Source: Candidatus Omnitrophota bacterium (lineage in GTDB: Bacteria > Omnitrophota > Gorgyraeia > B26-G9). Taken from it: a stretch of DNA of 64,000 bases. A model generated the notes under the pieces. It was not told the origin of the DNA, made no database searches, and worked only from the letters and a program-made list of their open reading frames with translations. The first letter of the stretch is position 1, and each line of letters starts with the position of its first letter. The position numbers were made by a program, and so were the translations under genes. This document shows, one piece after another, positions 5,397 to 52,548 of the stretch. The stretch covers positions 73,352 through 137,351 of the forward strand of contig JACQZH010000041.1 in NCBI GenBank assembly GCA_016213925.1, written 5' to 3'.

Positions 5397-5684
5397 ATGA
5401 AAATTTTACTTGTTAATTTACCTTGGAAAAATGCTGATAGATGGGGAGTGCGTGCCGGATCGCGCTGGCCGCATATAAAGGACGCGACCGAAGAAAATTA
5501 TCTGGCTTTTCCGTTTTATCTTGCGTATGCCGCGGCGCTATTAAGAAAAAATGGTTTTGATGCAGTGATTATTGACGCGATAGCGCAACGGCTTTCCTAT
5601 GGTGATTTTTTAAAAAAAACTGAAGAACTAAAGCCTGATTTGCTGGTTGCGGAGACGTCTACAGTACCTTGCTTGAGCTTGTAA
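5397..5684 (+). CDS. N-terminal half of a B12-binding domain; fragment of the disrupted fusion gene that continues in another frame at 5669
   Basis: MKILLVNLPW...LAYAAALLRKNGFDAVIIDA...KPDLLVAETST matches the start of B12-binding radical SAM proteins. It stops at TAA, and the downstream ORF continues the same family alignment in frame +2. Confidence 0.4.
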   Translation: MKILLVNLPWKNADRWGVRAGSRWPHIKDATEENYLAFPFYLAYAAALLRKNGFDAVIIDAIAQRLSYGDFLKKTEELKPDLLVAETSTVPCLSL

Positions 5685-8600
5685 AAGCGCTTGAAAATAA
5701 TAACCCGCTGGGAACAGTGCAAGGGCTTATTTACCGTAATAAATCAGATGTGGTAAAAAACTCGCCGCGTACTTTAATTGCCGATTTGGATCAATTGCCC
5801 TGGCCGCTTCGCGAAGGATTGCCGGTTAAGCGTTACAATGATGCTCCGGGGGATATTCCTATCCCTTGCGCTTCAATGTGGGCAAGCCGTGGATGCCCGT
5901 TTGGCTGTTCGTTCTGTCTTTGGCCGCAGGTAATGTACGGGGGTAATTCTTACCGCGTGCGCAGCGTAAAAAACGTAGTTGATGAAATGGAGTATCTTAT
6001 AAAAGAGTTGGGATTTAAATCCGTATATTTTGATGATGATACCTGGAATATCGGTTCTGAAAGGATTATTGCTTTTTGTGATGAACTGGAGCAAAGAAAA
6101 TTGAATGTGCCGTGGGCAATTATGGCAAGAGCAGAATTGATGAATGAGTATTTACTCGAAAGGATGCGCAAGGCAGGATTGTATGCGGTAAAATACGGGA
6201 TTGAATCATCTTCGCAAAAGATCGTTAATGATACCGGAAAGAGGCTTAATCTTGAAAAAGCGGAGGAGATGATAAGGTATACGAAGTATCTGGGGATAAA
6301 GACTCATTTAACGTTTACTTTTGGATTGCCCGGAGAAACGCAGCAAACAATTAATGAAACAATAGAATATGCTTGCAGGCTTAATCCTACTTCAGTGCAG
6401 TTTTCTCTGGCAACGCCTTTTCCCGGGACAAGATTTTACGATGAAATGGAGAAAAAAGGATATATAGTCTCAAAAGATTTAGAAAAGCTTGATGGTAATC
6501 ACAGCAGCGTGATCAGAACGCAAAGCCTTAGCGCCCGCGAACTGCAGCAAGCGAAGAAAAAAGCTTATATAACTTGGAATAGGCATTGCCGGTTTAAACG
6601 GCAAAGGCTAAAATTTCCTCAAAAAACTATAAAGGAAAAATTTGACGCTTCATTGCTGGAATACGGGTTATTTTATACAACAATGAAAATTTTGCGTTAT
6701 ATTTTGAGGCGTTTGCTGATTATCCCGTGGAAAATCCGCAGCTTTTTTAATGCAAATCTCTGGATTATAGAAGAAATTATAACTGCCGGGAATATTTCGA
6801 TTAAGTTCGGCGAAGGGCAAGTGCGCGTATACTATAATAATATAGAAATTTCAAAAGGGATCGGGATTACGGCTTCATTTTATTACGGAGAACGTTGGTT
6901 TGATTCTTCTCGGGCTAACTGGAAGCTTGAGAAAGATTCAGAGAAAAGCATAAGAGTTAAATTGACCTGGGATGATATCCCCATACGGCAATCATGGACA
7001 ATTTTGATTGGTGAAGAAGGGAAAATAAGCTGGAATAGCAAGCTTCAAGTACAAACTGCAGTACAGCTGCTTGAGTATAAGGCTGGAATCATGCTTCAGG
7101 AGCAATATACTAGATGGAAAGATGAACTTGGTGTTGGAAATTTCCCGAAAATAACTCAATGGGAAGAAATTGAATTATATAACGCTAATTCCCGCAGGCT
7201 TTTTGTTTTTAAAGAGGCTGCGGAAAGTAATAGCCAGATGCCGGAAGTCGAATTAGCGCTGAAAACAGCAAACAGGCCAAACATATATCCGCAGATACAA
7301 AATACTGATATAAAAACGAATGCTCGGATTATTCAGATGCGCAGTTTGCGAATTGAGCAGTTTGTCCCGGGAGAATATGCATATTTTGATCTGGAAATAT
7401 TTTTGCATAAAAAAAACTTGATAGCGCAGAATGTATCTGCGCTTAAGAAAAGAACTCCTTTAGGAATAATTAAGGCGCAGATTGCTCAAAATGGGGCTTC
7501 TACGGTGCTGCGTAAAATTATTAAAAACCTGCATCCGGTAAAACTTTCGGATTATTATACGGATATTGTCGGAGTTATGGACGGTTCCTATGCGTATAAG
7601 GGGCCTTATTGCGTGCAAATCGATCTGACCAACGATTGTAATAACGATTGTGTCGGCTGCTGGTGTAATTCACCGCTTTTGAAAGAGCGAAAAATCAGCA
7701 AGGAGATAAAGCAGCAGGCATTACCTTTGGATGTAGTGAAAAAAACAATTGATGATTTGGCGCTAATGGGAACTAAAGAGATATATTTTGCCGGAGGCGG
7801 AGAGCCGTTTATGCATGCGCATATTATGGAGATACTTGAATATGTCAAAGCTAAAGGATTAAAGTGTTATATAAATACAAACTTTACGTTGGTAACCGAA
7901 AATATGGTTAAACGGCTTGTGGAGATTGGAGTTGATCATTTGGTTGTAAGTGTATGGGCAGGAACTGCACAGACATATAAGCTTACGCATCCCAATAAGT
8001 CAGAAGAGATGTTTTATCAGATAAAAGGGATGTTAAAGCTGCTTAATTCTTTAAAGGACAATGTGCCGCAGGTTAATGTGTATAACATTATTTTTAACCG
8101 GAACTTTAAAGAATTGCCGCAGATGGTTGATTTCGCGCTTGAAGCCGGAGCCGATTCACTTGAATTTACGGTTATTGACACGATCCCTGAAGCGACGGAT
8201 ACACTGATTTTGGACGAAGGACAACGTTTACAGGTTTGCGGTGATTGTGAGAATATTCAAAAACGTTTGGAAGGTGAGCTTAAGGGAAAGATAAAAATTC
8301 TTCAGTTTGAGCAATTCTTGCGCCGCGTGAATAATAACGCCGCGCAAAAAGCTGAATATGATGATAATATTCTCGCGGAAATACCGTGTTATATCGGTTG
8401 GATTTTTGCCCGGATACTTGCTGACGGAAATGTTAACTTTTGCCTGAAAGCGCATCGTATTCCGGTGGGGAATATTTACGCGCATTCTTTTTCGCAAATC
8501 TGGAATAACCGCAAGCAACAGGAATTCCGTATAAGAGCACTGTGCCAGGAAAAAACCGATCCATTTTTTTCGTTTATTGGGAATGATCCGAATGTTCAGG

Positions 8601-9433
8601 TAGGTTGTTTTAAGGGCTGTGATGACCTTGCGAGGAATATCCGTATGCATGAAAAAATTCAATCGTTAACACGACCGGAATTTATTTTTTTGCGCATTGT
8701 GCTTATTTTAAAGAAAATGCTGCGTTTATATCGGACAAAAGCGCTTTCCAGCACGTTTAAAAAACGGTTACAAACAACTAAAAGGAAGCCTATACTTTCT
8801 TCCGGTAAACTTAGTATTGATTGCTGTGAAGACGGGATTAAACTTTACTGGGATGGTAAAGAGTTGACAGAAAGCGTGGGATTAAATACTTCAGTGTGCG
8901 TATATGGTTTATGGTATGACTCTTCAAGAGCTGAATGGGAAATAATGGGAAATTCTCATGCAAGATGCGTAATCCGTAATACTTGGAAAAATATTCCGGT
9001 TTCACAGCTATGGACGATTACAACGGATAATGATAATCTTATAAAATGGGATGTAAAGATGATTGTAGATACAAGAATTGATATAGAAGAAAGTAAAGCA
9101 AGCATAATCCTCAATTCCCGATATAAAAAGTGGATTGCCGGAGATGATCTTGGGTTCTTTCCCCGGGAAATGTCTTGGAATGAAGTTCAGATCCCCGGGA
9201 AAGCGGTTAAGAACATAGGAGTTCAATCAGTAAAAGATAAAGACTGGAAATTTCCTTCTGTGCAGATTATCTTTTTGGAAAAACAGGAAGGTGTTAAACC
9301 TCAATTGCAAAATGCCGGTAAAAAGATAAATGCGCGGTTATTGTCCGTACGCAAAGCTTCTGAAGATGGAGAAACAATATATCTGCCGGGAGAACATGAT
9401 ATCTTTTCACTGCAAATTAAAGTGATGGAATAA
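5669..9433 (+). CDS. giant multidomain fusion: (B12-)radical SAM + Trp-rich repeat + second radical SAM-SPASM + Trp-rich repeat
   Basis: First radical SAM: RGCPFGCSFC. Repeat: YYGERWFDSSRANWKLE...IPIRQSWTIL...KAGIMLQEQYTRW. Second radical SAM: CNNDCVGC, GGGEPF, then Cys-rich SPASM-like tail (NFCLKAH...CQEK...GCFKGCDD). C-terminal repeat: GLWYDSSRAEWEI...IPVSQLWTI...KASIILNSRYKKWI. The ORF-track start is TTG; the true start is uncertain. Confidence 0.7.
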   Translation: MLELVKALENNNPLGTVQGLIYRNKSDVVKNSPRTLIADLDQLPWPLREGLPVKRYNDAPGDIPIPCASMWASRGCPFGCSFCLWPQVMYGGNSYRVRSVKNVVDEMEYLIKELGFKSVYFDDDTWNIGSERIIAFCDELEQRKLNVPWAIMARAELMNEYLLERMRKAGLYAVKYGIESSSQKIVNDTGKRLNLEKAEEMIRYTKYLGIKTHLTFTFGLPGETQQTINETIEYACRLNPTSVQFSLATPFPGTRFYDEMEKKGYIVSKDLEKLDGNHSSVIRTQSLSARELQQAKKKAYITWNRHCRFKRQRLKFPQKTIKEKFDASLLEYGLFYTTMKILRYILRRLLIIPWKIRSFFNANLWIIEEIITAGNISIKFGEGQVRVYYNNIEISKGIGITASFYYGERWFDSSRANWKLEKDSEKSIRVKLTWDDIPIRQSWTILIGEEGKISWNSKLQVQTAVQLLEYKAGIMLQEQYTRWKDELGVGNFPKITQWEEIELYNANSRRLFVFKEAAESNSQMPEVELALKTANRPNIYPQIQNTDIKTNARIIQMRSLRIEQFVPGEYAYFDLEIFLHKKNLIAQNVSALKKRTPLGIIKAQIAQNGASTVLRKIIKNLHPVKLSDYYTDIVGVMDGSYAYKGPYCVQIDLTNDCNNDCVGCWCNSPLLKERKISKEIKQQALPLDVVKKTIDDLALMGTKEIYFAGGGEPFMHAHIMEILEYVKAKGLKCYINTNFTLVTENMVKRLVEIGVDHLVVSVWAGTAQTYKLTHPNKSEEMFYQIKGMLKLLNSLKDNVPQVNVYNIIFNRNFKELPQMVDFALEAGADSLEFTVIDTIPEATDTLILDEGQRLQVCGDCENIQKRLEGELKGKIKILQFEQFLRRVNNNAAQKAEYDDNILAEIPCYIGWIFARILADGNVNFCLKAHRIPVGNIYAHSFSQIWNNRKQQEFRIRALCQEKTDPFFSFIGNDPNVQVGCFKGCDDLARNIRMHEKIQSLTRPEFIFLRIVLILKKMLRLYRTKALSSTFKKRLQTTKRKPILSSGKLSIDCCEDGIKLYWDGKELTESVGLNTSVCVYGLWYDSSRAEWEIMGNSHARCVIRNTWKNIPVSQLWTITTDNDNLIKWDVKMIVDTRIDIEESKASIILNSRYKKWIAGDDLGFFPREMSWNEVQIPGKAVKNIGVQSVKDKDWKFPSVQIIFLEKQEGVKPQLQNAGKKINARLLSVRKASEDGETIYLPGEHDIFSLQIKVME

Positions 9434-28829: not shown

Positions 28830-29831
28830 ATGACAATTTCTTATAAAATTGCTACTGCTTTGCAGTTTGCGAAAGCGAAATTATTGAAGCGGAAAATTCC
28901 TTTGATTGTCAGCTGGGCGATTACTTATCGGTGTAATCAGGCCTGCCTATATTGCCAATGGCCAAAAGTTAATTCCTTGGAAGTTTCTACGAAAGAAGCA
29001 TGCTTAATTATTGATAAGCTTGGTTTCTTGGGAACAAAAAGGATTAATTTTACCGGAGGAGAACCGCTTTTACGGAAAGATATTTCGGAATTGGTAGATT
29101 ACATAAAAAACCGCAAGATGTTTGTGTGTATAAACTCTAATGGGGTTTTAATCCCAACTAAAATTACCCGCTTAAAACGGCTTGATCTGCTTAATTTGAG
29201 TTTGGAAGGTCCTGTAGAAATTCATGACTGTATTAGAGGTGCCGGAGGATATGCTGCGGTTATGGCGGCGGCAGAATCAGCGCGCTTAGCTGGTGTGAAC
29301 GTAAAACTTACAGCAACAATAAACAATTTAAATGCTTGTGTCCTAGAGTATATCATAAAAATAGCCTGGAAATTGAACCTGGAAGTTACTTTTCAAGTGG
29401 TGGATGATTATAAACTCGGTTGTTTGTCGGAAAACCCGCTTAAGTTAAAATCAGGAGAATTGCAAAAAGCACTTAGCTTAATTATCGCGTACAAGAAACA
29501 ATCTAAGTATAAGGCGGTCATCGGTAATTCTTTGGCGTTACTGGAATATCTTTTGCAGTGGCCTAATCTGGTACCGCTTAAATGTGCGTCCGGAAATATT
29601 GTTTTCCGGATTACCCCTGACGCAAAACTTTTTACCTGTGCTGCGGCTACATTTAAGGAGTTGGCGGTTAGTAATAATTGGATTGATCTTAAAGATAATA
29701 ATGTTAAGGAGATAAAAGCAGTACTTAAGGGTTTTGATTTTTTAAATATTAAATGTGTTTGTTCCTGCAGCAACAGATTGGCAGTTAGTTTGCTCTGGGA
29801 CATGAGTTTGCGGCTAAAAAAAAAGTTTTGA
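28830..29831 (+). CDS. radical SAM-SPASM/twitch protein (paralog of 33596..34606)
   Basis: SWAITYRCNQACLYC, TGGEPLLRKD, C-terminal Cys cluster (LKCASG...FTCAAA...CVCSC). Confidence 0.65.
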   Translation: MTISYKIATALQFAKAKLLKRKIPLIVSWAITYRCNQACLYCQWPKVNSLEVSTKEACLIIDKLGFLGTKRINFTGGEPLLRKDISELVDYIKNRKMFVCINSNGVLIPTKITRLKRLDLLNLSLEGPVEIHDCIRGAGGYAAVMAAAESARLAGVNVKLTATINNLNACVLEYIIKIAWKLNLEVTFQVVDDYKLGCLSENPLKLKSGELQKALSLIIAYKKQSKYKAVIGNSLALLEYLLQWPNLVPLKCASGNIVFRITPDAKLFTCAAATFKELAVSNNWIDLKDNNVKEIKAVLKGFDFLNIKCVCSCSNRLAVSLLWDMSLRLKKKF

Positions 29832-37417: not shown

Positions 37418-39007
37418 ATGGACTTTTTAACTTCGGGTAATTGGAAGAAAAACAAGAGGATATATTTTTTATTATTATGGTGTTGTATAATTGTAGGGTT
37501 CATTCTTAGTGTGCTGTTATTAACGAAAGATTATTTTATTTATAATGATGGAGCCTGTTATGCTATTTCGGGAAAGAACTTATTTAGTGGGAATGGGTAT
37601 GAATGTTTTGGCAAGCCGCAACTATGGTTTCCGCCGTTATACCCGATACTTATTGGGGTGGCTGATTTAATAGTAAAGGACTTAGAGTTTGCGGTTCATT
37701 TGGTGTCGATTATGGCATTTTTAATATCGATACCTTTATTTTTTATGGCAGCGGAATTGATGTTTAATGCTCGGGTTGCATGTTTTGCAAGTGTAATTTT
37801 TGTTGTCAATAAGTTGATGTTAGAAATTTCTTATAGTGGGTTTCCCCATGCGCTAGATGTTTTGCTTGCAATTATAATTATTTATTATGGAGTGCATATA
37901 CTCAAAAATACTATTTTAGATATTAAAAAATTTTTTATTCTTGGCTGTTTGTTTGGCTTTTCGATGCTGAACCGAGCAGAAAATATTATCACGTTTTTTT
38001 CTGTGTCCATGGTGCTTGCTATATATAAAAAAGGATGGCAGTTTAAGAGGCTGAAATATTTTATGATAACGTTACTTGTTGCGGCATCGATAATAGCACC
38101 ATATGTAAAGTTTTTACATGTTTATACGGGTAAGTGGACTCTTACTACTAAGTTAATAAATTTAAAGTATTATGAGTATGTGACATCAAATGATGACTTG
38201 GCGCGGGAAAAGAATTCAATGGCAAATTATCATTTCTTGAACATAGGCAAGGGGGATTTTGATATTCTTGAATATGTAAGAAAGAATAAAACAGCGTTAA
38301 TTAAAAGATATGTCCAGGGGGTGATAAAATTGATTAGCCAATTAAATAATATTTTATATGGTTCTGTGTTTGTATGGCTAATTGTATTACTTAGCTTATT
38401 TGGTAAAAATAGAATTGAAAATAGAATAAAAGCTTTGCTTTTTTCAATGCTTGCGATATTTTTAATAATACCTTTTGGTAATGTCCTTAGCAGATATTTT
38501 GCTGCCGGATTGCCAGTATTTTTTTTATTTATGGCTAAAGGGTTGGATAATATGTTTAAAGTTCGGATACGGCTTTTTAGTAGCAAAGCAAATGCTTTAC
38601 TGCGCATTATGATAATAATTGTATTCTTGCTGCCAATGTTTATGGGGGCTTCTGATGTTATGCTAAAAAATAAGGATATACCGATAGAACATAAAAGACT
38701 GGGCATTTGGATGAAGAATAACATACCAGACATATTTGGAAAAAAAATAATAGCTCAGAAAATTTGGAGCACTTTTTATGCAGGAGCTCAATTTTCAGGC
38801 AAAGTGCCTTACCTTGATGATATTGATGAAATTATGCAATTTCTAAAGGAAAGCGAGGCGGATTTTTTAATAGTCGATGAAAGAAGCGTAAAAAAACAGT
38901 TGCATGTACTTGAGCCGCTACTGGATAATGGCGGATATGTTAGTTTAAGCATGATCCATAGTATTAAGAATCCGAAGAGGATTGTACTGTATGAAATCAA
39001 CAGATGA
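37418..39007 (+). CDS. ArnT/PMT_2-like GT-C glycosyltransferase
   Basis: NDGACYAISGKNLFSGNGYE...WFPPLYPILIG is typical of the PMT_2 first-loop region; multi-TM. Confidence 0.45.
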   Translation: MDFLTSGNWKKNKRIYFLLLWCCIIVGFILSVLLLTKDYFIYNDGACYAISGKNLFSGNGYECFGKPQLWFPPLYPILIGVADLIVKDLEFAVHLVSIMAFLISIPLFFMAAELMFNARVACFASVIFVVNKLMLEISYSGFPHALDVLLAIIIIYYGVHILKNTILDIKKFFILGCLFGFSMLNRAENIITFFSVSMVLAIYKKGWQFKRLKYFMITLLVAASIIAPYVKFLHVYTGKWTLTTKLINLKYYEYVTSNDDLAREKNSMANYHFLNIGKGDFDILEYVRKNKTALIKRYVQGVIKLISQLNNILYGSVFVWLIVLLSLFGKNRIENRIKALLFSMLAIFLIIPFGNVLSRYFAAGLPVFFLFMAKGLDNMFKVRIRLFSSKANALLRIMIIIVFLLPMFMGASDVMLKNKDIPIEHKRLGIWMKNNIPDIFGKKIIAQKIWSTFYAGAQFSGKVPYLDDIDEIMQFLKESEADFLIVDERSVKKQLHVLEPLLDNGGYVSLSMIHSIKNPKRIVLYEINR

Positions 39008-39846
39008 TTTTGAAGTTTAATTTTAGATATACATGGGAAATAGATTTTTTGCTTATGAATAATATATTAACAATTGATTTAGAGGATTGGTATCAGACCC
39101 AGGCTTTGCGGTCAAGAATAAAAGTAACAGACTGGGATAAGAAAGATGATAGATTACCATTGCTTACCTTAGAGATTTTGCGTGTTTTAAGAAGCGCTCA
39201 GGTAAAAGCAACTTTTTTTGTCGTTGCATATAATGCTAAACGTAATCTCTCGTTGCTTAAAATGATTTTAAAAGATGGCCATGAATTAGGGTTGCACGGA
39301 TATTACCATACGTTAGTTTACAAACAGACACCGGAAGAATTTAGAAAGGAAATGAAATATTCAAAGGAATTAATTGAGGATGCTTGCCAAACAAGAGTGA
39401 TCGGATTTAGGGCGCCTAATTGGTCTATAAATAGGAATAATTTATGGGCATTGGAAATCTTGTCTGAACTTGGATTTTTATATGATTCTAGTTTGATGGT
39501 AAAGTTGCTGACTAAGCATATAAGAAATATACCAATTGATATGCTGGAGATCCCTAGGTCGACATTTAGCTTGTTAAATTTTGAAATTCCTTTTGGTGGA
39601 GGAGTTTTTTTTAGGGCATATCCTTATTTTATAACAAAGCGCTTTATATCTGATGCGAATAGAAATGGCAAGAAGGTTATGGTATATATTCATCCATGGG
39701 AATTTGATTTAGATCAACATTCGGATTATTCTTTTGGTATTAGAAAAGTGATAAATAATTTTAATCGTTCTAAAATGGATTTAAGGTTTAAGTCTTTGTT
39801 GGCAGATTTTAAATTTAGCTCAGTTAGAGATATTTTTTTTGATTAG
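39004..39846 (+). CDS. polysaccharide deacetylase (CE4; resembles the PEP-CTERM-locus subfamily)
   Basis: ILTIDLEDWYQ N-terminal motif and HGYYH metal-binding block. The true start may be the internal ATG near 39058. Confidence 0.6.
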   Translation: MILKFNFRYTWEIDFLLMNNILTIDLEDWYQTQALRSRIKVTDWDKKDDRLPLLTLEILRVLRSAQVKATFFVVAYNAKRNLSLLKMILKDGHELGLHGYYHTLVYKQTPEEFRKEMKYSKELIEDACQTRVIGFRAPNWSINRNNLWALEILSELGFLYDSSLMVKLLTKHIRNIPIDMLEIPRSTFSLLNFEIPFGGGVFFRAYPYFITKRFISDANRNGKKVMVYIHPWEFDLDQHSDYSFGIRKVINNFNRSKMDLRFKSLLADFKFSSVRDIFFD

Positions 39847-39861
39847 GAAGGTAAGACTAAA

Positions 39862-40563
39862 ATGAAAGCTGACATAGCAATAATAATACCGGTTTTTAAC
39901 GAGGTAGAAACAATAAGGGAAGTTGTTTTAGATATAATAAAGAATTATAAAGGCGTAGAAATAATTGTTGTTAATGATGGGTCTACTGATGGTTCTCTCG
40001 ATAGAATTAAAGATATTGATGTTAAAGTGCTGAACAGTAAAAAAAATAGAGGGTATGGTGCAGCCTTAAAAACAGGGATCAGTTATACAGATAAAGAGCT
40101 TATTGTAACTATTGATGCTGACGGAGAACATTCAGTTAAGCATATAGAACGGCTAATATCCGAAGCTGATTGCTGCGATATGGTAGTTGGGGCTAGGGCT
40201 GCTGAATCAGTATCCACTTTTCCTTTATTGCAGAAAATAGCTAAAGGAATAGTGTATGCTTTATTTTTGTCGATTTTGAAGGTGAAAATTTTAGATGTTA
40301 ATTCTGGGTTAAGGTTAATTAAAAAAACTATTATAGAAAAATATTTCGATTTACTTCCTGATGGGTTTTCATTTACTTCAACTCTTACTTTAACTATGGT
40401 TTTAGAAAAAAAGAAAGTGAAGTATGTCCCGGTAACTGATTTTAAAAGAAGACGCGGTTCAAAGGTGCATATATTTTCTTACACAATGAATTTCATTAAG
40501 TCTTATTGCAAGGTTTTGTTTTACTTTAAACTAAAAAAAGGAGTTTTTAGCAAAATAGCTTAA
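39862..40563 (+). CDS. GT2 Dpm1-like polyprenyl-phosphate sugar synthase
   Basis: IIIPVFNEVETI, VNDGSTDGS, TIDADGEH; short, soluble Dpm1-like length. Confidence 0.65.
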   Translation: MKADIAIIIPVFNEVETIREVVLDIIKNYKGVEIIVVNDGSTDGSLDRIKDIDVKVLNSKKNRGYGAALKTGISYTDKELIVTIDADGEHSVKHIERLISEADCCDMVVGARAAESVSTFPLLQKIAKGIVYALFLSILKVKILDVNSGLRLIKKTIIEKYFDLLPDGFSFTSTLTLTMVLEKKKVKYVPVTDFKRRRGSKVHIFSYTMNFIKSYCKVLFYFKLKKGVFSKIA

Positions 40564-40588: not shown

Positions 40589-41488
40589 ATGAGTTTTTTA
40601 TTGTTCGGGTTAAAAAGAAAAAAAATTCGTTCTTTAGCTAAAAAGTTAATACGTTCCAGTATAGGGACAATAGATGGCAAAGCAGGCAATTATAAGGTAA
40701 TAGAGCTATTGCATAGAGGTTTAATTTTGTCTAACGCATATAAAAAAGATGACCTATTCTCTAGCATACAAATACAAACAAAAACCGGATGTAATTATAG
40801 CTGTAGATTTTGTCCGGCTAATAAAGATTTAGTAAACTTATATGGTGGGGAGTCTAATTATGCAAAGATGTCGATTGAGCTTTTTGAGGATATTATTTGC
40901 CAGTTATCTAAAATGAAATTTTCGGGGAGGATTTCTCCGTATCTTATGAACGAGCCTTTACTTGATGGGCGACTTCCAAGATTTGTCGCAATTACAAAAA
41001 ATAAGTGCCCGAATGCATTTATATTTATCCAGACAAATGGAAAATTACTTAATAAAAAGATGTTAGTGGAATTAGTTGATGCGGGCATTGATGAGATATA
41101 TGTAAACGATTATACGGAAAATGGTATTATTTTAAAACTTCTTATAAATATGGATATCCCAAGAAGGTATAGAGAAAGACTTACCCTGGAAAAAAGGTCA
41201 TTAGATGAGAAATTGACAAATCGAGCGGGTAATATTTTTGTTAGTAATAAAATATATAATGTTCCTTGTCTTAAACCTTTTAAACAAATGTTTATAACCT
41301 TCAATGGGATTGCAGTGCTTTGTTGTCAGGATTGGCAATTTTTACAACAAATGGGAGATGTTAAGAAAGGCTCTTTAATGAGTATTTGGAACAATCATGC
41401 CTATAAGATGATTAGAAATAATTTGGGAAAATCACAAAGGGCTTTTAATGTTCTTTGTAGCAGATGCGATAGCAGTGGATTGTGGTAA
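40589..41488 (+). CDS. radical SAM protein with C-terminal Cys-rich (SPASM/twitch-like) region
   Basis: TGCNYSCRFC; C-terminus AVLCCQDW...LCSRCDSSG. Confidence 0.6.
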   Translation: MSFLLFGLKRKKIRSLAKKLIRSSIGTIDGKAGNYKVIELLHRGLILSNAYKKDDLFSSIQIQTKTGCNYSCRFCPANKDLVNLYGGESNYAKMSIELFEDIICQLSKMKFSGRISPYLMNEPLLDGRLPRFVAITKNKCPNAFIFIQTNGKLLNKKMLVELVDAGIDEIYVNDYTENGIILKLLINMDIPRRYRERLTLEKRSLDEKLTNRAGNIFVSNKIYNVPCLKPFKQMFITFNGIAVLCCQDWQFLQQMGDVKKGSLMSIWNNHAYKMIRNNLGKSQRAFNVLCSRCDSSGLW

Positions 41489-41623: not shown

Positions 41624-44098
41624 ATGGATAAAAATTACTTAGAAATTGATGATAGCCATTCCAACCTCAATGGCTTACCAGAGATAGCAATTATCGGACT
41701 TGGCAGGTGGGGTGGAGGGCCATTGTTAAACACATTAAAACAATTTCCTGTCACCATACATGCCGTAGCAAAGTCTAATTATAAAAACTGGAAGGAGAAA
41801 AAAGATACAAAAGAACTTCCTGAAAATATTTTGGTTTATAGCTCTGAAAAATACGACGAAGAAATTTTGAAAAACAAGAATATTAGGGCAGTAGTTATCT
41901 CCACTCAATTTAGTACTCATTTTGAATTATCTAAGCAGGCACTTTTATCAGGGAAAGATGTTTTTGTAGAAAAACCATTCACAAGGACATTTCGACAAGC
42001 GAAAGAATTGCTGGAGATTGCGGAAAAGAACGGTTGTATATTAACAATAGGTTATGAGTATAGGTATTCTTCTAATATAAGATGGCTTGGAGAGGTGATT
42101 AGACGGGATGAGTTGGGTAAAATTACCGAGATTGAACTCAACATGTTAAATCCGCTTGACAACAGGAAGTTGGATATGAGTTCTAATGTTTGCGAAGATT
42201 TAGCTTCGCATATGTTAAGCTTGCTACATTCACTGTTCGGGGAGCGAGATATATCTGAACTTAGAGTGGATACAGATATCCCCTGTGATATGGCAAAAAT
42301 TTCTTTTAAATATTGTAAGGGATATAACCAGGATATAAAAGTATGTATTAATGTAGATCGTAACTATAAGGGGAATAATAGAAATAGGACGATTATTTTA
42401 AAGACAACTAAGTTAGTTTTAATCTTGGACTATCAAAAAAGCGAGGTTGAAGTTCTCGATATAAATGGGAGTATTATAAGTGATCTAGCTAACGGTCTTT
42501 CCAGAGAATTATTGCAGGAAGTTGAAGATAAAAGTAACTTGGAATTAGAATTTGAAGATTTTTTACAAGCTGTAAAATCACGTCAAGCTGGTATAAATTC
42601 TGCTCAATCGCTTTTGTGTATATCTGAAACTATAGAGTGGATAAATGAATTAATGGTGTCTTGTCAGAATGGGTGGCAAGACAAAGAATTAAAGTGGATA
42701 TTAAGACATCGTCCGAATATAGTAGAAGAAGTATATCATAAACTTTTATATGAACCATGGTTATCTTTTTCCGTTATAGCTAGCCAACTTAACCTGAGTC
42801 TTAGTTCATTGCAAAAAATTTTGGAAAAGATATTAGAGGATCCTTTGTGGTGTGAAAAGGGAAAAGAAGAAATCAGGAACGGGAGATTCGCTACAGCGTC
42901 TTATTTTAGTAATACTGAAAGATTTGCCGATGTTGAAAGAATTTATAAGGTTATTAGAGGGGAAAAATATCTTTATCCCAAAAAGGTTGAATTCCATGTA
43001 GGTGTAGAATGTCCTGCTAATTGCGTTTTTTGCTATAGGAATATTAATGGGCAGAGACAGGCATATGAATTGGAGATTAAAGATGGTTTTAGTAAATTAA
43101 CTCCGGATGATTATGTGAGGTTACTCAAAGAGCTCGCTGATAATGGCACTTCGGAGATCTATGTTTCCGGAGGTTTGGAGCCATTGACTGATTTTGATAG
43201 CACAGGTACGATTATTAATTATGCGATTTCAAGAGGTTTGTTTGTTTTTTTATATTCAAATGCGATTCCTGATACATGGGATAAAGCTGTTCCGTTGATT
43301 TTAAAAACTAGCCAGGCTAGAATCAGTTTAGGCGCGGCAAACCATGAAACATATCACAAAGTTTATCGTGTTAGTAATGATCCTGCTCGGTCGAAAATGA
43401 TATTTTACAAAGTATTAGGCAGAGTGAAAAATTTAGTTAAGGAAAAGAGAAAACTTGGTTCTAAAACCCAAATAGGGATTCAAATCCTGCTTACTTTAAC
43501 TAATTTTCAAGAAATAATTCAGTTAGCAAAACTTTCAGATAGTATCGGAGTTGATTTTTTAGATATCCGTTCAGATTATATGGGTATTGTTCGTTTCAGC
43601 CATGAAGAGAAGGCAGAGCTTGCAAGACTTCTTTATTTAACAAAAGAAAAACAGGAAAAGGGAGAGTTTGGTAGTCTTAGGATATCCGTTCCGGATAATT
43701 TTAAACTAATCGGGGATAACGGTATTATAGGAACTTCAATATATGTTTTTCCTGAGGAGAATTATTCTAAACGCGGAATTTTCTTTTTTGAATTAACGAT
43801 AGATCCTTTTGGGATTGTATTCGGTACAACTACTTCAGCAAACCCAGGTATACGCAGAGATTGGGGGAAAAAACAAATTTTGGGAAAACTTGGACCGGGG
43901 GTGAATATTAGAAATATATTGGAGACGGCTATGGAAAGAGAATTTAAATTAGCTGCAAATACAACCAATGTATTTACTAAACAGATATTGCTTGAAATAA
44001 AACGAGTTGAGGACAATATTGCTTTAGCTATTCCGTTAGATTTAATTAAAAATCCGTTTGCTTCAAGTAAAACTGTAAGCAGGCTCATTAAACGTTAA
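41624..44098 (+). CDS. Gfo/Idh/MocA-family oxidoreductase fused to a radical SAM domain
   Basis: N-terminus IAIIGLGRWGGGPLL...GKDVFVEKPFT (Rossmann NAD(P) plus EKP motif). C-terminal half ECPANCVFC (CxxxCxxC) and YVSGGLEPL. No further Cys cluster. Confidence 0.65.
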   Translation: MDKNYLEIDDSHSNLNGLPEIAIIGLGRWGGGPLLNTLKQFPVTIHAVAKSNYKNWKEKKDTKELPENILVYSSEKYDEEILKNKNIRAVVISTQFSTHFELSKQALLSGKDVFVEKPFTRTFRQAKELLEIAEKNGCILTIGYEYRYSSNIRWLGEVIRRDELGKITEIELNMLNPLDNRKLDMSSNVCEDLASHMLSLLHSLFGERDISELRVDTDIPCDMAKISFKYCKGYNQDIKVCINVDRNYKGNNRNRTIILKTTKLVLILDYQKSEVEVLDINGSIISDLANGLSRELLQEVEDKSNLELEFEDFLQAVKSRQAGINSAQSLLCISETIEWINELMVSCQNGWQDKELKWILRHRPNIVEEVYHKLLYEPWLSFSVIASQLNLSLSSLQKILEKILEDPLWCEKGKEEIRNGRFATASYFSNTERFADVERIYKVIRGEKYLYPKKVEFHVGVECPANCVFCYRNINGQRQAYELEIKDGFSKLTPDDYVRLLKELADNGTSEIYVSGGLEPLTDFDSTGTIINYAISRGLFVFLYSNAIPDTWDKAVPLILKTSQARISLGAANHETYHKVYRVSNDPARSKMIFYKVLGRVKNLVKEKRKLGSKTQIGIQILLTLTNFQEIIQLAKLSDSIGVDFLDIRSDYMGIVRFSHEEKAELARLLYLTKEKQEKGEFGSLRISVPDNFKLIGDNGIIGTSIYVFPEENYSKRGIFFFELTIDPFGIVFGTTTSANPGIRRDWGKKQILGKLGPGVNIRNILETAMEREFKLAANTTNVFTKQILLEIKRVEDNIALAIPLDLIKNPFASSKTVSRLIKR

Positions 44099-50079: not shown

Positions 50080-51123
50080 ATGAAGAAAAATATACTTATT
50101 ATTGGAAGTGCCGGTTTTTTAGGCGAAGCATTATTGAGGCATCTCTCACAAAAGGATTATAAACTAACAGGTTTTGATAGAACTAATCCGTTCCCGTTGA
50201 CGTTAAATGCTGAATATATAAAGGGGGATATCCTTGATTATCAATCAGTGCATAAAGCGATAAAAGCAAAAGATGTGGTGATTAATTGTTCTGGAGTTAT
50301 GCCGAATGCTTCAAAAAAGGAAATGTTTTCTTTACACTCTAATGGCATGGAAAATATTTTAAAAAGTGCGCTAGAAAATACGGTTGATAGAATAATTCAT
50401 ATTTCATCTCCTGCGGTGTATGGTTCTAATGATACGATCCCTTGGGGTGAAGATGCTCCATTGAGAGGGGCTAATGTGCATGCGCAGGCAAAAATTATAG
50501 CCGAACAGGTTTGTCAGAAATACAGGATTAAAGGATTATCAGTAACAATTTTAAGGCCAATGCCTCTTACGGGGCATGGAAGATTAGGAGTTTTTTACTT
50601 GTTTTATCAATTAATTGAAAAAGGAATTACTATCCCATTGCTGGGGGATGGGAAGAATATAATTCAATTGCTTGATATCGGAGATTTGTGCAATGTAATC
50701 ACTTTACTTATTCAGCAAGATAAATCACTAATTAATGATGTGTTTAATGTTGGAGCAGAACGATTTTCTACTTTACGTGAAGATATCCAGAACTTGATCA
50801 ATACTGTTAACAGTAAATCACGATTATGTTTGTTCCCAGCTTTTCCCATAAAGATCATACTTAATATACTTACGAAAATTGGGATATCGGACATTTATTA
50901 CCCAATGATTGCTATTTTAGATAAGTCAATTATACTTTCAAACGAAAAAATTAAAAAACTTGGTTGGAAAGCAGTCAAGAGTAATACAGAGTCATTAATA
51001 ACAGGCTACTATTGGTATTTAAAAAATAAAGAGAATATTATTGAAACAAAAACTAATCGCGGAAAATCTTCAAATAAAGCGTCTCGTTTATTAAATATCC
51101 TTTTTAAAAAGGCTTCGAAGTAA
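50080..51123 (+). CDS. NAD-dependent epimerase/dehydratase (extended SDR)
   Basis: ILIIGSAGFLGEAL glycine-rich NAD motif; length typical of the family. Confidence 0.55.
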   Translation: MKKNILIIGSAGFLGEALLRHLSQKDYKLTGFDRTNPFPLTLNAEYIKGDILDYQSVHKAIKAKDVVINCSGVMPNASKKEMFSLHSNGMENILKSALENTVDRIIHISSPAVYGSNDTIPWGEDAPLRGANVHAQAKIIAEQVCQKYRIKGLSVTILRPMPLTGHGRLGVFYLFYQLIEKGITIPLLGDGKNIIQLLDIGDLCNVITLLIQQDKSLINDVFNVGAERFSTLREDIQNLINTVNSKSRLCLFPAFPIKIILNILTKIGISDIYYPMIAILDKSIILSNEKIKKLGWKAVKSNTESLITGYYWYLKNKENIIETKTNRGKSSNKASRLLNILFKKASK

Positions 51124-52548
51124 TAGCAGAAGCCAAAGTCTTACGGTATTAAATTGGCGTAATATAATGAGAATAGTAAAGTTGCAAAAAATCATGCGTC
51201 GTAAATATGAAGCAGATGCATAAAAAGCAAGGTATGCTTTGCTTGCCCATGCATTTAAATCCTTTCTGCTTAATATTACGTCAGGATTTTCCCATAATCG
51301 TGTTTCTATCGTGTTGTTTAGATAAGATTCAAGCCAGGGGTCTTTATTGAATTTTTTTAATATTTTATTATAGATATCTGTGTAAGGCAATGGTACAGTA
51401 ACTATAAACTGCGCAAAATGTAATGGCAATTTTTTTGCAAACTGAATGGTGTCAGAAATGCTATTTATTGTATCACCGCTATTCCCAATCATAAAAAAGC
51501 CTAAAGTTATAAAATTACGTTTTACGGTTGCAGCTATAATGTGTTCTATATTGTTTAGAGACGTTGGACGTTTCAGTGTCTTTAGTATATCGCTACTTCC
51601 TGATTCAATCCCATAATGAATGCTAATGCATCCAGCTTTTTTCAGCTCATCTAATAAATCAGGGTCCATGTAATCAGTACGGGTACGGATTGCCCATTTT
51701 ATATCTATTTTATGTTTTCGCAGTTGGCTGCAAAATGATATTGTCCTTTCGCGATCTATGGTAAAAGTCGAATCCAAGAAAGTGATTTCTCTGATTCCGA
51801 ATCGATAACGGCATTCTTCGATTTCTTCTATAGTTTTTGATAGTGTTCTTTTTTGGTACGGGATCTGTCTGTCGGTGCAATAGGTACATTTGAAAGGACA
51901 TCCGATACTGGTTATCATTGTTGTAAATTTACTATGGATGGAAAGAGCTGAACCATATAGGCCGTTATTAATAAGTTCCCGAGCTGGAAAAGGGAGTTCA
52001 TCAAGCACATAGGCATCTTCTGGAGGATTTTGAATGATTTTATTATCCTCTTGATAAACGATGCCATTAATGTGCTTAAAACTTTTTTTGCGTGCTATTG
52101 TTTCGATAATAGATGGCAGGGAGGAGAACCCTTTACCAGAGAGAACGATATCTATTTGCTTGTTTTTAGCGACTATTTCAGGATAAAGCTGGGGGAAATG
52201 TCCTCGAGCAATAATTACAGCGGATGATATTTTTCTGATCAACTTTAAACAATCGATTTCATAACGGGGATTGAAAATGTTGATGGATGAACAGACAATA
52301 TCCGGCTGGTTATTTTTTATATATAAAATAATGTCTTGTAGTGAAAAATAGTCTAATTCACAATCAAAAATTTTTATGTTATGCCCATTTTTTTTAAGTA
52401 ATGCTGCTGAATAAAGCAGCCCCAAGGGGGGATAACGGACAAGCCATTTGCAATACAGCGTTGAAGAAAGACACCCTCCGGGATTAATGATACTCGATGC
52501 TGAGGAAGTCCCGGCTTTAAGAGGGAAACGAATAAATAGGATATTCAT
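51091..52548 (-). CDS. B12-binding radical SAM protein (only minus-strand gene in the window)
   Basis: N-terminal B12-binding-like domain and SIGCPFKCTYC. Convergent 33-nt overlap with 50080..51123. Confidence 0.7.
   Translation of the reverse strand: MNILFIRFPLKAGTSSASSIINPGGCLSSTLYCKWLVRYPPLGLLYSAALLKKNGHNIKIFDCELDYFSLQDIILYIKNNQPDIVCSSINIFNPRYEIDCLKLIRKISSAVIIARGHFPQLYPEIVAKNKQIDIVLSGKGFSSLPSIIETIARKKSFKHINGIVYQEDNKIIQNPPEDAYVLDELPFPARELINNGLYGSALSIHSKFTTMITSIGCPFKCTYCTDRQIPYQKRTLSKTIEEIEECRYRFGIREITFLDSTFTIDRERTISFCSQLRKHKIDIKWAIRTRTDYMDPDLLDELKKAGCISIHYGIESGSSDILKTLKRPTSLNNIEHIIAATVKRNFITLGFFMIGNSGDTINSISDTIQFAKKLPLHFAQFIVTVPLPYTDIYNKILKKFNKDPWLESYLNNTIETRLWENPDVILSRKDLNAWASKAYLAFYASASYLRRMIFCNFTILIILRQFNTVRLWLLLLLRSLFKKDI

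What the first reader, a model, noticed from the sequence alone, without database searches (positions are those of the whole stretch)
41624..44098. Gfo/Idh/MocA dehydrogenase fused to a radical SAM domain
A single 824-aa ORF carries an N-terminal Rossmann/EKP sugar-dehydrogenase fold (IAIIGLGRWG...GKDVFVEKPFT) and a C-terminal radical SAM core (ECPANCVFC, SGGLEPL) with no SPASM extension. Pairing an NAD(P)-dependent sugar C-oxidation with radical chemistry in one polypeptide would suggest a coupled oxidation/radical rearrangement (deoxygenation, epimerisation or C-C formation) on a nucleotide- or lipid-linked sugar. I do not know of a characterised enzyme with this architecture.
Basis: partly seen in the sequence, partly recalled or inferred. 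Interest (0 to 1): 0.6.

Follow-up and report, generated by a model that had tools for sequence, protein, structure and literature searches.

The report
Sugar dehydrogenase fused to DesII-like radical enzyme
One intact gene in an uncultured Omnitrophota bacterium joins an NAD(P)-dependent sugar oxidoreductase to a DesII-type radical SAM enzyme; the same pairing recurs in other uncultured microbes in both domain orders, so it is probably an uncharacterised two-step sugar-tailoring enzyme, most likely a deoxygenase.

Summary
Window 41624-44098 (+) is one uninterrupted 824-aa ORF, identical to NCBI MBI4846226.1, which is annotated only as "Gfo/Idh/MocA family oxidoreductase" from an Omnitrophota MAG.

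- **N-terminal half (aa 1-345):** a complete two-domain Gfo/Idh/MocA fold with GxGxxG, EKP and D-x3-H motifs.
- **C-terminal half (aa ~352-824):** a complete three-domain DesII-type radical SAM enzyme. The AF2 model has pLDDT 90 and matches DesII 8HZV at TM 0.75-0.77, against ≤0.48 for the next fold.
- **Clusters:** it has one CX3CX2C cluster. Its C-terminal domain is a cysteine-less version of the twitch/SPASM-like domain found in about 85% of relatives.

The fusion is not an artefact. A second assembly carries it, and 14 of the 150 best family representatives fuse the same Gfo subfamily to this rSAM family. Both domain orders occur, at four separate positions in the rSAM tree. Two of these proteins also carry a nucleotidyltransferase domain. 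Outside such fusions I found only one possible stand-alone copy of this Gfo subfamily.

Genomic contexts are often glycan-assembly clusters. Here the gene follows a GT-C / deacetylase / polyprenyl-phosphate-sugar synthase trio.

The most likely mechanism, which is inferred, is radical β-elimination to a keto-deoxy sugar followed by NAD(P)H reduction, as in DesII and AprD4/AprD3. It is not a DesII orthologue. No paper found describes this architecture.

The parts
41624..44098 (+). Whole bifunctional gene, 824 aa plus stop. Identical to NCBI MBI4846226.1.
41684..42055 (+). Gfo/Idh/MocA Rossmann NAD(P)-binding domain, aa 21-144. Carries G25-x-G27-x-x-G30, A49-K50-S51 at the β2 end, and E116-K117-P118.
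   Evidence: PF01408, 65.4 bits; invariant columns
42086..42658 (+). Gfo/Idh/MocA C-terminal α/β substrate domain, aa 155-345, with D192...H196. It is weak by Pfam but clear by fold.
   Evidence: 17.9 and 14.4 bits, below cutoffs; two-domain Gfo fold; target-normalised TM up to 0.83 with GnnA 7bvj
42677..42958 (+). DesII-type N-terminal helical domain of the rSAM module, aa ~352-445. It follows the last Gfo helix with no long linker.
   Evidence: helices; DesII domain description
42971..43693 (+). Radical SAM core, aa ~450-690. Carries GGLE at 515-518, the ribose motif R565/S567, and the β6 motif 'IRSDY' with D650-Y651.
43007..43030 (+). CX3CX2C cluster motif: C462, C466, C469.
43721..44068 (+). 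C-terminal β-hairpin plus helices domain, aa ~700-815. This is a cysteine-less counterpart of the twitch/SPASM-like domain of relatives: R716, T734 and T780 replace the family Cys triad.
43256..43351 (+). 96-nt in-frame segment (aa 545-576, including the ribose motif) that is missing from the otherwise near-identical allele P0001 / MBI4651996.1 (one other A-to-V change).
37418..39007 (+). Neighbour: PMT_2 (ArnT-like GT-C) glycosyltransferase.
39004..39846 (+). Neighbour: polysaccharide deacetylase plus DUF3473, resembling the XrtA-system deacetylase.
39862..40563 (+). Neighbour: small GT2. Best matches are polyprenyl-phosphate sugar synthases (PpgS, AglJ, ArnC).
40589..41488 (+). Neighbour: radical SAM / SPASM protein directly upstream.

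Best explanation
The gene encodes a real bifunctional enzyme that carries out two consecutive steps on one sugar. The substrate is most likely a nucleotide-linked hexose or amino-hexose, or possibly a polyprenyl-phosphate-linked one, destined for an envelope glycan.

**Shown:**
- An intact ORF.
- A complete Gfo/Idh/MocA oxidoreductase module.
- A complete DesII-type radical SAM module with one [4Fe-4S]/SAM site and no auxiliary-cluster cysteines.
- Recurrent fusion of these same two subfamilies in both orders.

**Inferred mechanism:**
1. The radical SAM module makes 5'-deoxyadenosyl radical and abstracts the hydrogen from a carbinol carbon.
2. The α-hydroxyalkyl radical expels the neighbouring OH or NH3+ group.
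3. One-electron reduction gives a keto-deoxy sugar, which is DesII / AprD4 chemistry.
4. The fused Gfo module reduces that ketone with NAD(P)H.

The net result is deoxygenation or deamination of the sugar, following the two-enzyme logic of AprD4/AprD3. The product would then feed the adjacent polyprenyl-phosphate-sugar synthase / deacetylase / GT-C module.
For: **The fusion is real.**
- The ORF is uninterrupted and composition is uniform across the junction.
- The same protein occurs in two NCBI assemblies.

**The modules are complete.**
- Both Pfam domains pass.
- The AF2 model of the rSAM half has pLDDT 90 and pTM 0.91. It matches DesII 8HZV over about 470 columns at TM 0.75-0.77, while the next folds reach ≤0.48.
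- A family profile hits DesII at E = 4e-50 across residues 52-479.
- The SAM-binding motifs named for DesII (PMC11434129) are present: GGLE, R-x-S and 'IR-x-DY'.
- The full-length model has pLDDT 88.5 with no long linker. The Gfo half matches sugar dehydrogenases, with the best target-normalised TM of 0.83 to the UDP-GlcNAc 3-dehydrogenase GnnA.

**The two modules are coupled.**
- 14 of the 150 best representatives of the rSAM family carry this Gfo subfamily, scoring 172-561 bits against ≤106 bits for generic Gfo proteins.
- Both domain orders occur. The fused members sit at four separate positions in an NJ tree of the rSAM domain.
- The window's Gfo half is 53% identical to those of the reversed-order fusions. 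Its rSAM half is closest (41%) to P0029, which has no Gfo domain.
- A profile search for the Gfo subfamily alone found only P0157, which is a fusion split by one in-frame TAA, and P0158.

**The substrate class is a sugar.**
- UDPGP and ATP_transf nucleotidyltransferase domains occur in the same polypeptide in P0010 and P0015.
- Glycan-cluster contexts are seen for the window, P0002, P0013 and the stand-alone P0014.

**The Gfo half as a reductase.**
- The residues after β2 are A-K-S, and A-[R/K/G]-S in most fused relatives, rather than an acidic residue. I read this as an NADP(H)-type signature; this is inference.
- Gfo-family sugar 3-ketoreductases exist, for example 3rbv.
- AprD4 (rSAM diol dehydratase) plus AprD3 (NADPH reductase) is the precedent (PMC5461906).

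**Against a direct radical epimerase.** The only non-cluster Cys in the rSAM half is C409, in the N-terminal helical domain, and it is not among the family's conserved columns.
Against: - No substrate, product or activity is known for any member of this fusion family.
- The acid pair proposed for DesII catalysis (E408, D456; D456A is inactive) aligns with T736 and N781 here. The elimination chemistry may therefore differ, although the alignment in that region is divergent.
- The reversed-order fusions keep a three-Cys, presumably auxiliary, cluster. That feature is typical of rSAM dehydrogenases such as BtrN and anSME, and this protein lacks it. The shared Gfo partner could therefore serve a dehydrogenation-linked role rather than an elimination-linked one.
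- The NADP(H) call rests on a single sequence feature.
- Full-length pTM is only 0.69, so no fixed inter-domain geometry or channelling can be claimed.
- Several fusions (P0133, P0155, P0010) lie among housekeeping genes rather than in glycan clusters.
Confidence: 0.45

Rival explanations
1. Two-step epimerisation. The radical SAM module oxidises a secondary alcohol to a ketone, which is the DesII side-reaction on TDP-quinovose and the BtrN-type reaction. The Gfo module then re-reduces the ketone from the opposite face, inverting one stereocentre.
For: - DesII dehydrogenates TDP-D-quinovose (PMC11434129).
- Most relatives, including the reversed-order Gfo fusions, keep a three-Cys twitch/SPASM-like site. 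Auxiliary clusters of this kind are known from rSAM dehydrogenases.
- The Gfo fold matches sugar keto/hydroxyl oxidoreductases.
Against: - A Gfo dehydrogenase in the same chain could oxidise an ordinary carbinol itself, so spending SAM on that step seems unnecessary.
- The window protein has lost the auxiliary-cluster cysteines.
Confidence: 0.2
2. Oxidation first. The Gfo module uses NAD+ to make a 3-keto (or other keto) sugar, as GnnA and WbpB do. That keto sugar is the substrate for a radical SAM rearrangement, such as C-C bond formation, ring contraction or branching.
For: - The best target-normalised structural match of the Gfo half is the UDP-GlcNAc 3-dehydrogenase GnnA.
- NCBIfam hits include UDP-GlcNAc 3-dehydrogenase and IolG.
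- The nearest non-fused relatives are WbpB-like Gfo proteins fused to acetyltransferases.
- The island is full of other radical SAM tailoring enzymes.
Against: - There is no acidic residue at the β2 end, which I read as an NADP(H)-type, reductive signature.
- GnnA/WbpB-type oxidation is normally paired with an aminotransferase, and none is present among the 47 window ORFs scanned.
- The closest characterised rSAM, DesII, is a lyase and dehydrogenase, not a C-C-forming enzyme.
Confidence: 0.15
3. The substrate is not a glycan sugar but a cyclitol or sugar phosphate, for example an inositol derivative. The enzyme would then belong to small-molecule or lipid head-group metabolism.
For: - IolG-like and scyllo-inositol dehydrogenase similarity.
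- A stand-alone family member, P0009, sits next to an inositol-monophosphatase-family gene.
- A histidine phosphatase is fused in P0086.
- Several fusions lie outside glycan clusters.
Against: - The window copy, P0002 and P0013 all sit within glycosyltransferase clusters.
- Nucleotidyltransferase fusions point to nucleotide sugars.
Confidence: 0.1
4. The fusion is an artefact: an assembly chimera, or a frameshift merging two adjacent genes.
For: In one metagenome contig (L050) the homologous reversed-order fusion is split by a single in-frame TAA. Split forms or sequencing errors therefore do occur in this family.
Against: - The ORF is uninterrupted and composition is uniform.
- The identical junction is seen in two assemblies.
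- Fourteen fused representatives come from unrelated samples.
- The AF2 model runs from the last Gfo helix into the rSAM N-terminal domain with no long linker.
Confidence: 0.02

Closest known systems
DesII (TDP-4-amino-4,6-dideoxy-D-glucose deaminase, Streptomyces venezuelae; PDB 8HZV/8HZY)
   Same: - The same three-domain architecture: an N-terminal helical domain (six helices in DesII; a comparable helical bundle here), the rSAM core, and a β-hairpin plus helices C-terminal domain.
- A single CX3CX2C cluster with no auxiliary cysteines.
- Shared GGLE, R-x-S and IR-x-DY motifs.
- It is the best sequence and structure match by a wide margin.
   Different: - Only about 17% identity, and 62 bits against the 450-bit TIGR04426 cutoff.
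- The DesII acid pair E408/D456 aligns with T736/N781.
- There is no desosamine-pathway context and no aminotransferase nearby.
- DesII is a stand-alone protein, whereas this module is fused to a Gfo oxidoreductase.
AprD4 / AprD3 (radical SAM 1,2-diol dehydratase plus NADPH-dependent reductase; C3' deoxygenation in apramycin biosynthesis)
   Same: The functional logic matches: a radical SAM enzyme makes a keto-deoxy sugar and a nicotinamide-dependent partner reduces it (PMC5461906, PMC7941887).
   Different: - They are two separate proteins acting on a pseudodisaccharide antibiotic intermediate.
- Homology of AprD4 or AprD3 to the two halves here was not tested. No structure named AprD4 appeared among the listed PDB matches.
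- The resemblance is one of mechanism, not of membership.
Gfo/Idh/MocA sugar C3 oxidoreductases: GnnA and WbpB/WlbA (UDP-sugar 3-dehydrogenases) and KijD10-type NDP-sugar 3-ketoreductases
   Same: - The two-domain fold and the GxGxxG, EKP and D-x3-H motifs.
- Target-normalised TM of 0.83 to GnnA, and a sugar 3-ketoreductase (3rbv) among the sequence hits.
- The nearest non-fused relatives are WbpB-like.
   Different: - A separate subfamily: fused members score 172-561 bits on its profile against ≤106 bits for generic Gfo proteins.
- It occurs almost only fused to the DesII-like rSAM.
- The C-terminal domain is divergent and falls below Pfam thresholds.
Twitch/SPASM radical SAM dehydrogenases (BtrN, anSME)
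   Same: - Second-tier structural matches are SPASM/twitch enzymes.
- Most relatives of this rSAM keep three C-terminal Cys, and two of them hit Pfam SPASM.
   Different: The window protein has no C-terminal cysteines at all, so it cannot bind an auxiliary cluster at that site.

Membership tests
Gfo/Idh/MocA oxidoreductase family | PF01408 Rossmann domain above the gathering score | tested here: met
   65.4 bits against a cutoff of 24, aa 21-144
Gfo/Idh/MocA oxidoreductase family | GxGxxG dinucleotide-binding loop, the EKP motif with its lysine, and Asp/His in the C-terminal domain | tested here: met
   G25-L-G27-R-W-G30, E116-K117-P118 and D192...H196. G25, G27, E116, K117 and H196 are invariant in 12 fused homologues.
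Gfo/Idh/MocA oxidoreductase family | C-terminal α/β substrate-binding domain | tested here: met
   Pfam is below threshold (17.9 of 27; 14.4 of 22.9). The AF2 model nevertheless shows the full two-domain fold, with target-normalised TM of 0.66-0.83 to solved Gfo enzymes.
Gfo/Idh/MocA oxidoreductase family | NAD(P)-dependent oxidoreductase activity on a sugar | not testable with these tools
   Needs an enzyme assay.
Radical SAM superfamily | PF04055 above the gathering score, a CX3CX2C motif, and a GGE SAM-binding motif | tested here: met
   39.4 bits against a cutoff of 29.5. C462/C466/C469 and G515-G516-L517-E518 are present, conserved in 98-100% of about 100 relatives.
DesII-like radical SAM fold family | Three-domain DesII architecture over the full length | tested here: met
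   Foldseek TM 0.75-0.77 over about 470 columns to 8HZV, with the next fold at ≤0.48. The family profile hits DesII at E = 4e-50 across residues 52-479.
DesII equivalog (TIGR04426, dTDP-4-amino-4,6-dideoxy-D-glucose ammonia-lyase) | Score above the curated equivalog cutoff | tested here: not met
   62.4 bits against a cutoff of 450
DesII equivalog (TIGR04426, dTDP-4-amino-4,6-dideoxy-D-glucose ammonia-lyase) | Active-site acid pair E408 / D456 (D456A is inactive) | tested here: not met
   By profile alignment E408 corresponds to T736 and D456 to N781. The alignment in this region is divergent, so the mapping carries moderate confidence.
DesII equivalog (TIGR04426, dTDP-4-amino-4,6-dideoxy-D-glucose ammonia-lyase) | Desosamine-type pathway context, with an aminotransferase supplying the 4-amino sugar | tested here: not met
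   No aminotransferase family was found among the 47 ORFs of the window that were scanned.
SPASM/twitch radical SAM enzymes | Cys-rich C-terminal domain binding one or more auxiliary Fe-S clusters | tested here: not met
   No PF13186 hit and no Cys after C469. The family triad is replaced by R716/T734/T780. The domain itself is homologous to the one in relatives that do hit SPASM.
AprD4/AprD3-type radical deoxygenation pair | Sequence homology of the two halves to AprD4 and AprD3 | not tested
The resemblance is mechanistic only.
AprD4/AprD3-type radical deoxygenation pair | Radical dehydration to a ketone followed by NADPH reduction | not testable with these tools
   Needs an anaerobic in-vitro reconstitution.

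The most novel reading that the evidence does not exclude
The Gfo-DesII-like fusion defines a previously unrecognised, self-contained radical route for deoxygenating or deaminating nucleotide-linked or polyprenyl-phosphate-linked sugars. The route would be independent of the classical SDR/PMP deoxysugar machinery. It would be used by Omnitrophota, Zixibacteria-labelled MAGs and at least one probable archaeon to make unusual deoxy sugars for envelope glycans. The module appears to have been assembled independently several times, and it also occurs embedded in much larger multi-enzyme proteins of 2,940 and 3,426 aa.
Probability: 0.35. Interest if true: 0.65.

Novelty: new variant of a known kind. 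Interest (0 to 1): 0.55.

Why it matters
Radical SAM sugar-tailoring enzymes with known chemistry are few: DesII, AprD4, BtrN and a handful of epimerases and methylases. All come from antibiotic pathways of cultured actinomycetes.

This gene shows that a DesII-type enzyme has been permanently coupled to a dedicated nicotinamide oxidoreductase, repeatedly and in both orientations, in uncultured anaerobic lineages. There it probably serves cell-envelope glycan synthesis.

The fusion makes the second step of the pathway explicit. It provides a single expressible protein for discovering the reaction, and it offers a handle on what the extraordinarily radical-SAM-rich glycan islands of Omnitrophota build.

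Public annotation currently hides the radical SAM half, calling the protein only "Gfo/Idh/MocA family oxidoreductase".

Tried and rejected
1. **Artefactual fusion.** Rejected on the uninterrupted ORF, the uniform composition, the second assembly and the 14 fused representatives.
2. **DesII orthologue.** Rejected: 62 of 450 bits, the acid pair is not conserved, and no aminotransferase is present.
3. **True SPASM enzyme.** Rejected for this protein because it has no C-terminal Cys, although the domain is homologous to the one in relatives.
4. **Split (adjacent-gene) versions.**
   - The genome-contig scan with the rSAM profile returned 41 loci, none with the specific Gfo subfamily. Only generic Gfo genes (104-109 bits) lay 5-9 kb away in some Dehalococcoidia.
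   - The Gfo-profile search found only P0157, which is a fusion broken by one in-frame TAA, and P0158, on a 1.3-kb contig too short to show neighbours.
5. **Literature.** Searches for radical SAM together with Gfo/MocA found no paper on the architecture. The primary AprD4/AprD3 paper is not held.
6. **Word-index search with the rSAM half alone.** It found only one distant relative. The exhaustive profile search was needed.
7. **Inter-domain geometry.** Full-length pTM of 0.69 does not allow any claim of a fixed interface or channelling.
8. **Paralogues in the window.** There is no second Gfo gene. The other rSAM genes match only the generic core, at ≤80 bits.
9. **Gfo domain as electron donor to the Fe-S cluster.** Considered and rejected on chemical grounds. 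A flavin-free hydride-transfer enzyme cannot deliver single electrons.
Full report
**1. Observation**

Window 41624-44098 (+) is a single ATG-initiated ORF of 824 codons with no internal stop. The quoted motifs are all present: IAIIGLGRWG, GKDVFVEKPFT, ECPANCVFC and SGGLEPL.

Pfam places GFO_IDH_MocA (PF01408) at aa 21-144, with 65.4 bits against a cutoff of 24. It places Radical_SAM (PF04055) at aa 461-587, with 39.4 bits against a cutoff of 29.5. There are sub-threshold hits to the Gfo C-terminal domains and no SPASM hit.

GC content and skew are uniform across the junction. The exact protein is NCBI MBI4846226.1, [quoted passage not shown], on a 143.9-kb contig. A near-identical copy, MBI4651996.1, is labelled Desantisbacteria and lies on an 8.3-kb contig. 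It has the same junction but lacks 96 nt in frame, corresponding to window 43256-43351 or aa 545-576.

**2. Anatomy of the two halves**

*Gfo half (aa 1-345).*
- It carries the G25-x-G27-x-x-G30 loop, E116-K117-P118 and D192...H196. G25, G27, W29, H99, E116, K117, Y144, N176 and H196 are invariant in 12 fused homologues.
- In the full-length AF2 model (pLDDT 88.5) it adopts the complete two-domain Gfo fold.
- Foldseek matches it to sugar dehydrogenases. The best target-normalised TM is 0.83, to the UDP-GlcNAc 3-dehydrogenase GnnA. Other matches are DgpA, levoglucosan dehydrogenase, scyllo-inositol dehydrogenase and GFOR.
- The residues after β2 are A49-K50-S51, and A-[R/K/G]-S in most fused relatives, rather than an acidic residue. 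I read this as an NADP(H)-type signature. This is inference.

*rSAM half (aa ~352-824).*
- NCBIfam's best rSAM model is TIGR04426 (DesII), but only at 62 bits against a cutoff of 450.
- DesII is the only PDB sequence hit for this half (E = 2e-8). It is the top hit of family profiles at E = 4e-18 with 5 sequences and E = 4e-50 over DesII residues 52-479 with 55 sequences.
- An AF2 model built on 55 homologues has pLDDT 90 and pTM 0.91. It shows six N-terminal helices, the rSAM core, and a C-terminal β-hairpin plus helices. This is the three-domain layout described for DesII (PMC11434129).
- Foldseek gives TM 0.75-0.77 over about 470 columns to 8HZV. The next folds (SuiB, SkfB, CteB, anSME) reach only 0.43-0.48.
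- The DesII SAM-binding motifs are matched: GGLE at 515-518, R565-x-S567, and 'IRSDY' against DesII's 'IREDY'.
- The last Gfo helix (aa 331-349) is followed almost immediately by the first rSAM helix (aa 352-), so there is no long linker. Full-length pTM is 0.69, so the relative orientation of the two modules is not confidently predicted.

**3. The C-terminal domain and the 'no SPASM' statement**

Among about 100 full-length relatives, three C-terminal cysteines are conserved in 84-87%. In P0066 and P0053 this region hits Pfam SPASM. The family is therefore basically a twitch/SPASM-type family.

The window protein has R716, T734 and T780 at those three positions and no cysteine after C469. DesII has Y406 and M455 at two of them. 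The domain itself is still present in a cysteine-less form.

The acid pair proposed for DesII catalysis is E408 and D456, and D456A is inactive. These align with T736 and N781. Together with the low TIGR04426 score, and the absence of any aminotransferase among the 47 window ORFs scanned, this rules out calling the protein a DesII orthologue.

**4. The fusion is recurrent, and this is the key evidence**

- The word-index search with the whole protein found three further clusters with both Pfam domains (P0002, P0003, P0004). Alignment showed they are in the reverse order, rSAM then Gfo.
- Their Gfo halves are 42-53% identical to the window's. Their rSAM halves are 27-29% identical over more than 300 aa.
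- An exhaustive profile search of 1.84 billion representatives with the rSAM halves gave 218 hits at E < 1e-30.
- Among the best 150, fourteen carry the same Gfo subfamily. They score 172-561 bits on a subfamily HMM, against ≤106 bits for generic Gfo proteins (confirmed by Pfam).
- The rSAM→Gfo order is seen in P0002, P0003, P0004, P0010, P0011, P0012, P0013, P0015, P0016 and P0019.
- The Gfo→rSAM order is seen in the window protein (represented by P0001), P0133, P0155 and P0072. P0072 is a fragment of a larger protein that fills its whole contig.
- In a neighbour-joining tree of the rSAM domain, the fused members fall in four separate places.
- The window's rSAM half is closest (41% identity) to P0029, which has no Gfo domain. 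Its Gfo half is closest to those of the reversed-order clade, and only 28-30% identical to those of P0133 and P0155. The partnership therefore appears to have been rebuilt several times.
- The Gfo subfamily is almost never alone. A profile search found only P0157 and P0158 before scores dropped to generic levels. P0157 turns out to be a reversed-order fusion interrupted by one in-frame TAA, reading 'CQSH*YAM' where P0003 has 'CQSHEYAM'. P0158 sits on a 1.3-kb contig.
- The genome-contig scan with the rSAM profile found no true split pair.

**5. What the partners and neighbours say about the substrate**

- P0010 is 1,674 aa, on a contig with GatD/GatE-type genes and therefore probably archaeal. 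It adds a UDPGP nucleotidyltransferase domain.
- P0015 (3,426 aa) adds an ATP_transf/HIT-type nucleotidyltransferase domain.
- Other members of the rSAM family are fused to SAM methyltransferases or a histidine phosphatase.
- In the window, the gene follows a PMT_2 GT-C transferase (37418), a polysaccharide deacetylase (39004), a small GT2 (39862) and an rSAM/SPASM gene (40589). The GT2's best matches are the polyprenyl-phosphate-sugar synthases PpgS, AglJ and ArnC. The arrangement resembles the Arn pathway and the PpgS system, in which a sugar is loaded on polyprenyl phosphate, de-acylated and transferred outside the membrane. This comparison rests on established knowledge of those pathways.
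- P0002 sits between a PMT_2 gene and two SDR sugar epimerase/dehydratase genes.
- P0013 sits among GT2, AsnB-like, methyltransferase, rSAM, GT4 and GT9 genes.
- The stand-alone P0014 sits among GT8, Wzx, GT4 and PMT_2 genes.
- Not all contexts are glycan clusters. P0133, P0155 and P0010 lie among housekeeping genes.

**6. Mechanism**

*Shown:* both catalytic modules look competent, and they are evolutionarily locked together.

*Inferred:* the DesII-type module abstracts H from a carbinol carbon. The radical eliminates the vicinal OH or NH3+. One-electron reduction yields a keto-deoxy sugar. The Gfo module reduces it with NAD(P)H, giving net deoxygenation or deamination.

*Precedents:*
- DesII chemistry (PMC11434129).
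- AprD4 (rSAM diol dehydratase) with its NADPH reductase partner AprD3 (PMC5461906, PMC7941887).
- Gfo-family NDP-sugar 3-ketoreductases that follow dehydratases in deoxysugar pathways. This is established knowledge, and a 'sugar 3-ketoreductase' structure (3rbv) is among the hits.

A speculative local variant is that the neighbouring deacetylase supplies a vicinal amino-alcohol (HexN), which the enzyme deaminates and reduces.

*Rivals:*
- rSAM dehydrogenation followed by stereo-inverting reduction, giving epimerisation.
- Gfo oxidation first, then a radical rearrangement.
- A cyclitol or sugar-phosphate substrate.

A direct radical epimerase seems unlikely. The rSAM half has no conserved non-cluster cysteine to return the hydrogen atom: the only one is C409, which is not among the family's conserved columns.

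**7. Comparison with known systems, and novelty**

The two halves belong to known superfamilies. The rSAM half belongs to the DesII fold family but is not a DesII orthologue. The architecture is present in public databases, annotated only as a Gfo oxidoreductase. Full-text searches found no paper describing it.

I class it as a new variant of a known kind: a fused, recurrent, DesII-like rSAM plus dedicated nicotinamide oxidoreductase module.

Interest is moderate to high for radical SAM and glycobiology specialists, because it offers a single-protein entry point to new sugar chemistry in uncultured phyla. It does not overturn any concept, and the function remains unproven.

**8. Confidence**

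| Claim | Confidence |
|---|---|
| Real fusion of two functional, co-operating modules acting on a sugar-type substrate | about 0.85 |
| The specific elimination-then-reduction (deoxygenation/deamination) mechanism | about 0.4 |
| Combined figure reported for the best explanation | 0.45 |

Noticed in passing
window 1-64000: The whole 64-kb window is one almost entirely co-directional glycan-type island carrying 18 radical SAM genes.
- Nine are B12-binding class B genes, starting at 9435, 24793, 46004, 51091(-), 52945, 55620, 58168, 59576 and 61942.
- Six are rSAM/SPASM genes, at 839, 5669, 17652, 40589, 49056 and 54470.
- Two are plain rSAM genes, at 28830 and 33596. The last is the fusion itself.
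- The island also holds five PMT_2 GT-C genes (15976, 19269, 20684, 29848, 37418), a YfhO (35516), GT2 and GT4 genes, a carbamoyltransferase (13482), an AsnB-type amidotransferase (31453) and three GDSL hydrolases.

This density of radical SAM tailoring enzymes around glycosyltransferases is unusual.
   Followed up: partly
window 5669-9433 and 839-3409: Two unusually long rSAM/SPASM proteins. One is 1,254 aa with two Radical_SAM stretches. The other is 856 aa with a roughly 500-aa N-terminal region that has no Pfam match.
   Followed up: no
window 43256-43351: The otherwise near-identical allele in a second MAG (MBI4651996.1; one other A-to-V change) lacks exactly these 96 nt in frame (aa 545-576). 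This removes the β4 'ribose' SAM-binding motif R565/S567. The junctions share a short imperfect repeat, ATATTCAAA and ATATCACAAA. It could be an inactive allele, population variation or an assembly collapse.
   Followed up: partly
L050:592-594 (ENA ERZ18623297): A reversed-order rSAM-Gfo fusion closely related to P0003 is interrupted by a single in-frame TAA (GAA to TAA, E to stop). Gene callers therefore report a 'stand-alone' Gfo protein, P0157. It may be a pseudogene, a sequencing error or a read-through site; this is undetermined.
   Followed up: partly
L009, L010, L012, L020, L027 (Omnitrophota and Clostridia MAGs): The same DesII-like rSAM domain is embedded in giant ORFs of 2,769 to more than 6,900 aa. 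The representative library holds members up to 7,840 aa. A 2026 preprint (10.64898/2026.06.07.730766) lists radical SAM within a 'sugar metabolism' module of Omnitrophota giant proteins.
   Followed up: partly
L025, L026, L033, L037, L040, L041, L043: Omnitrophota and Planctomycetes MAGs encode proteins of about 1,440 aa that contain three tandem radical SAM cores distantly related to this family.
   Followed up: no
window 51091-52548 (-): This B12-binding rSAM gene is the only substantial gene on the minus strand in the window. It converges on the SDR epimerase/dehydratase gene at 50080-51123 and overlaps its 3' end by about 30 nt.
   Followed up: no
L005:10001-12363: A stand-alone family member that keeps the Cys triad (P0009) lies directly upstream of an inositol-monophosphatase-family gene in an otherwise housekeeping neighbourhood. 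This hints that some family members act on cyclitols or sugar phosphates.
   Followed up: no
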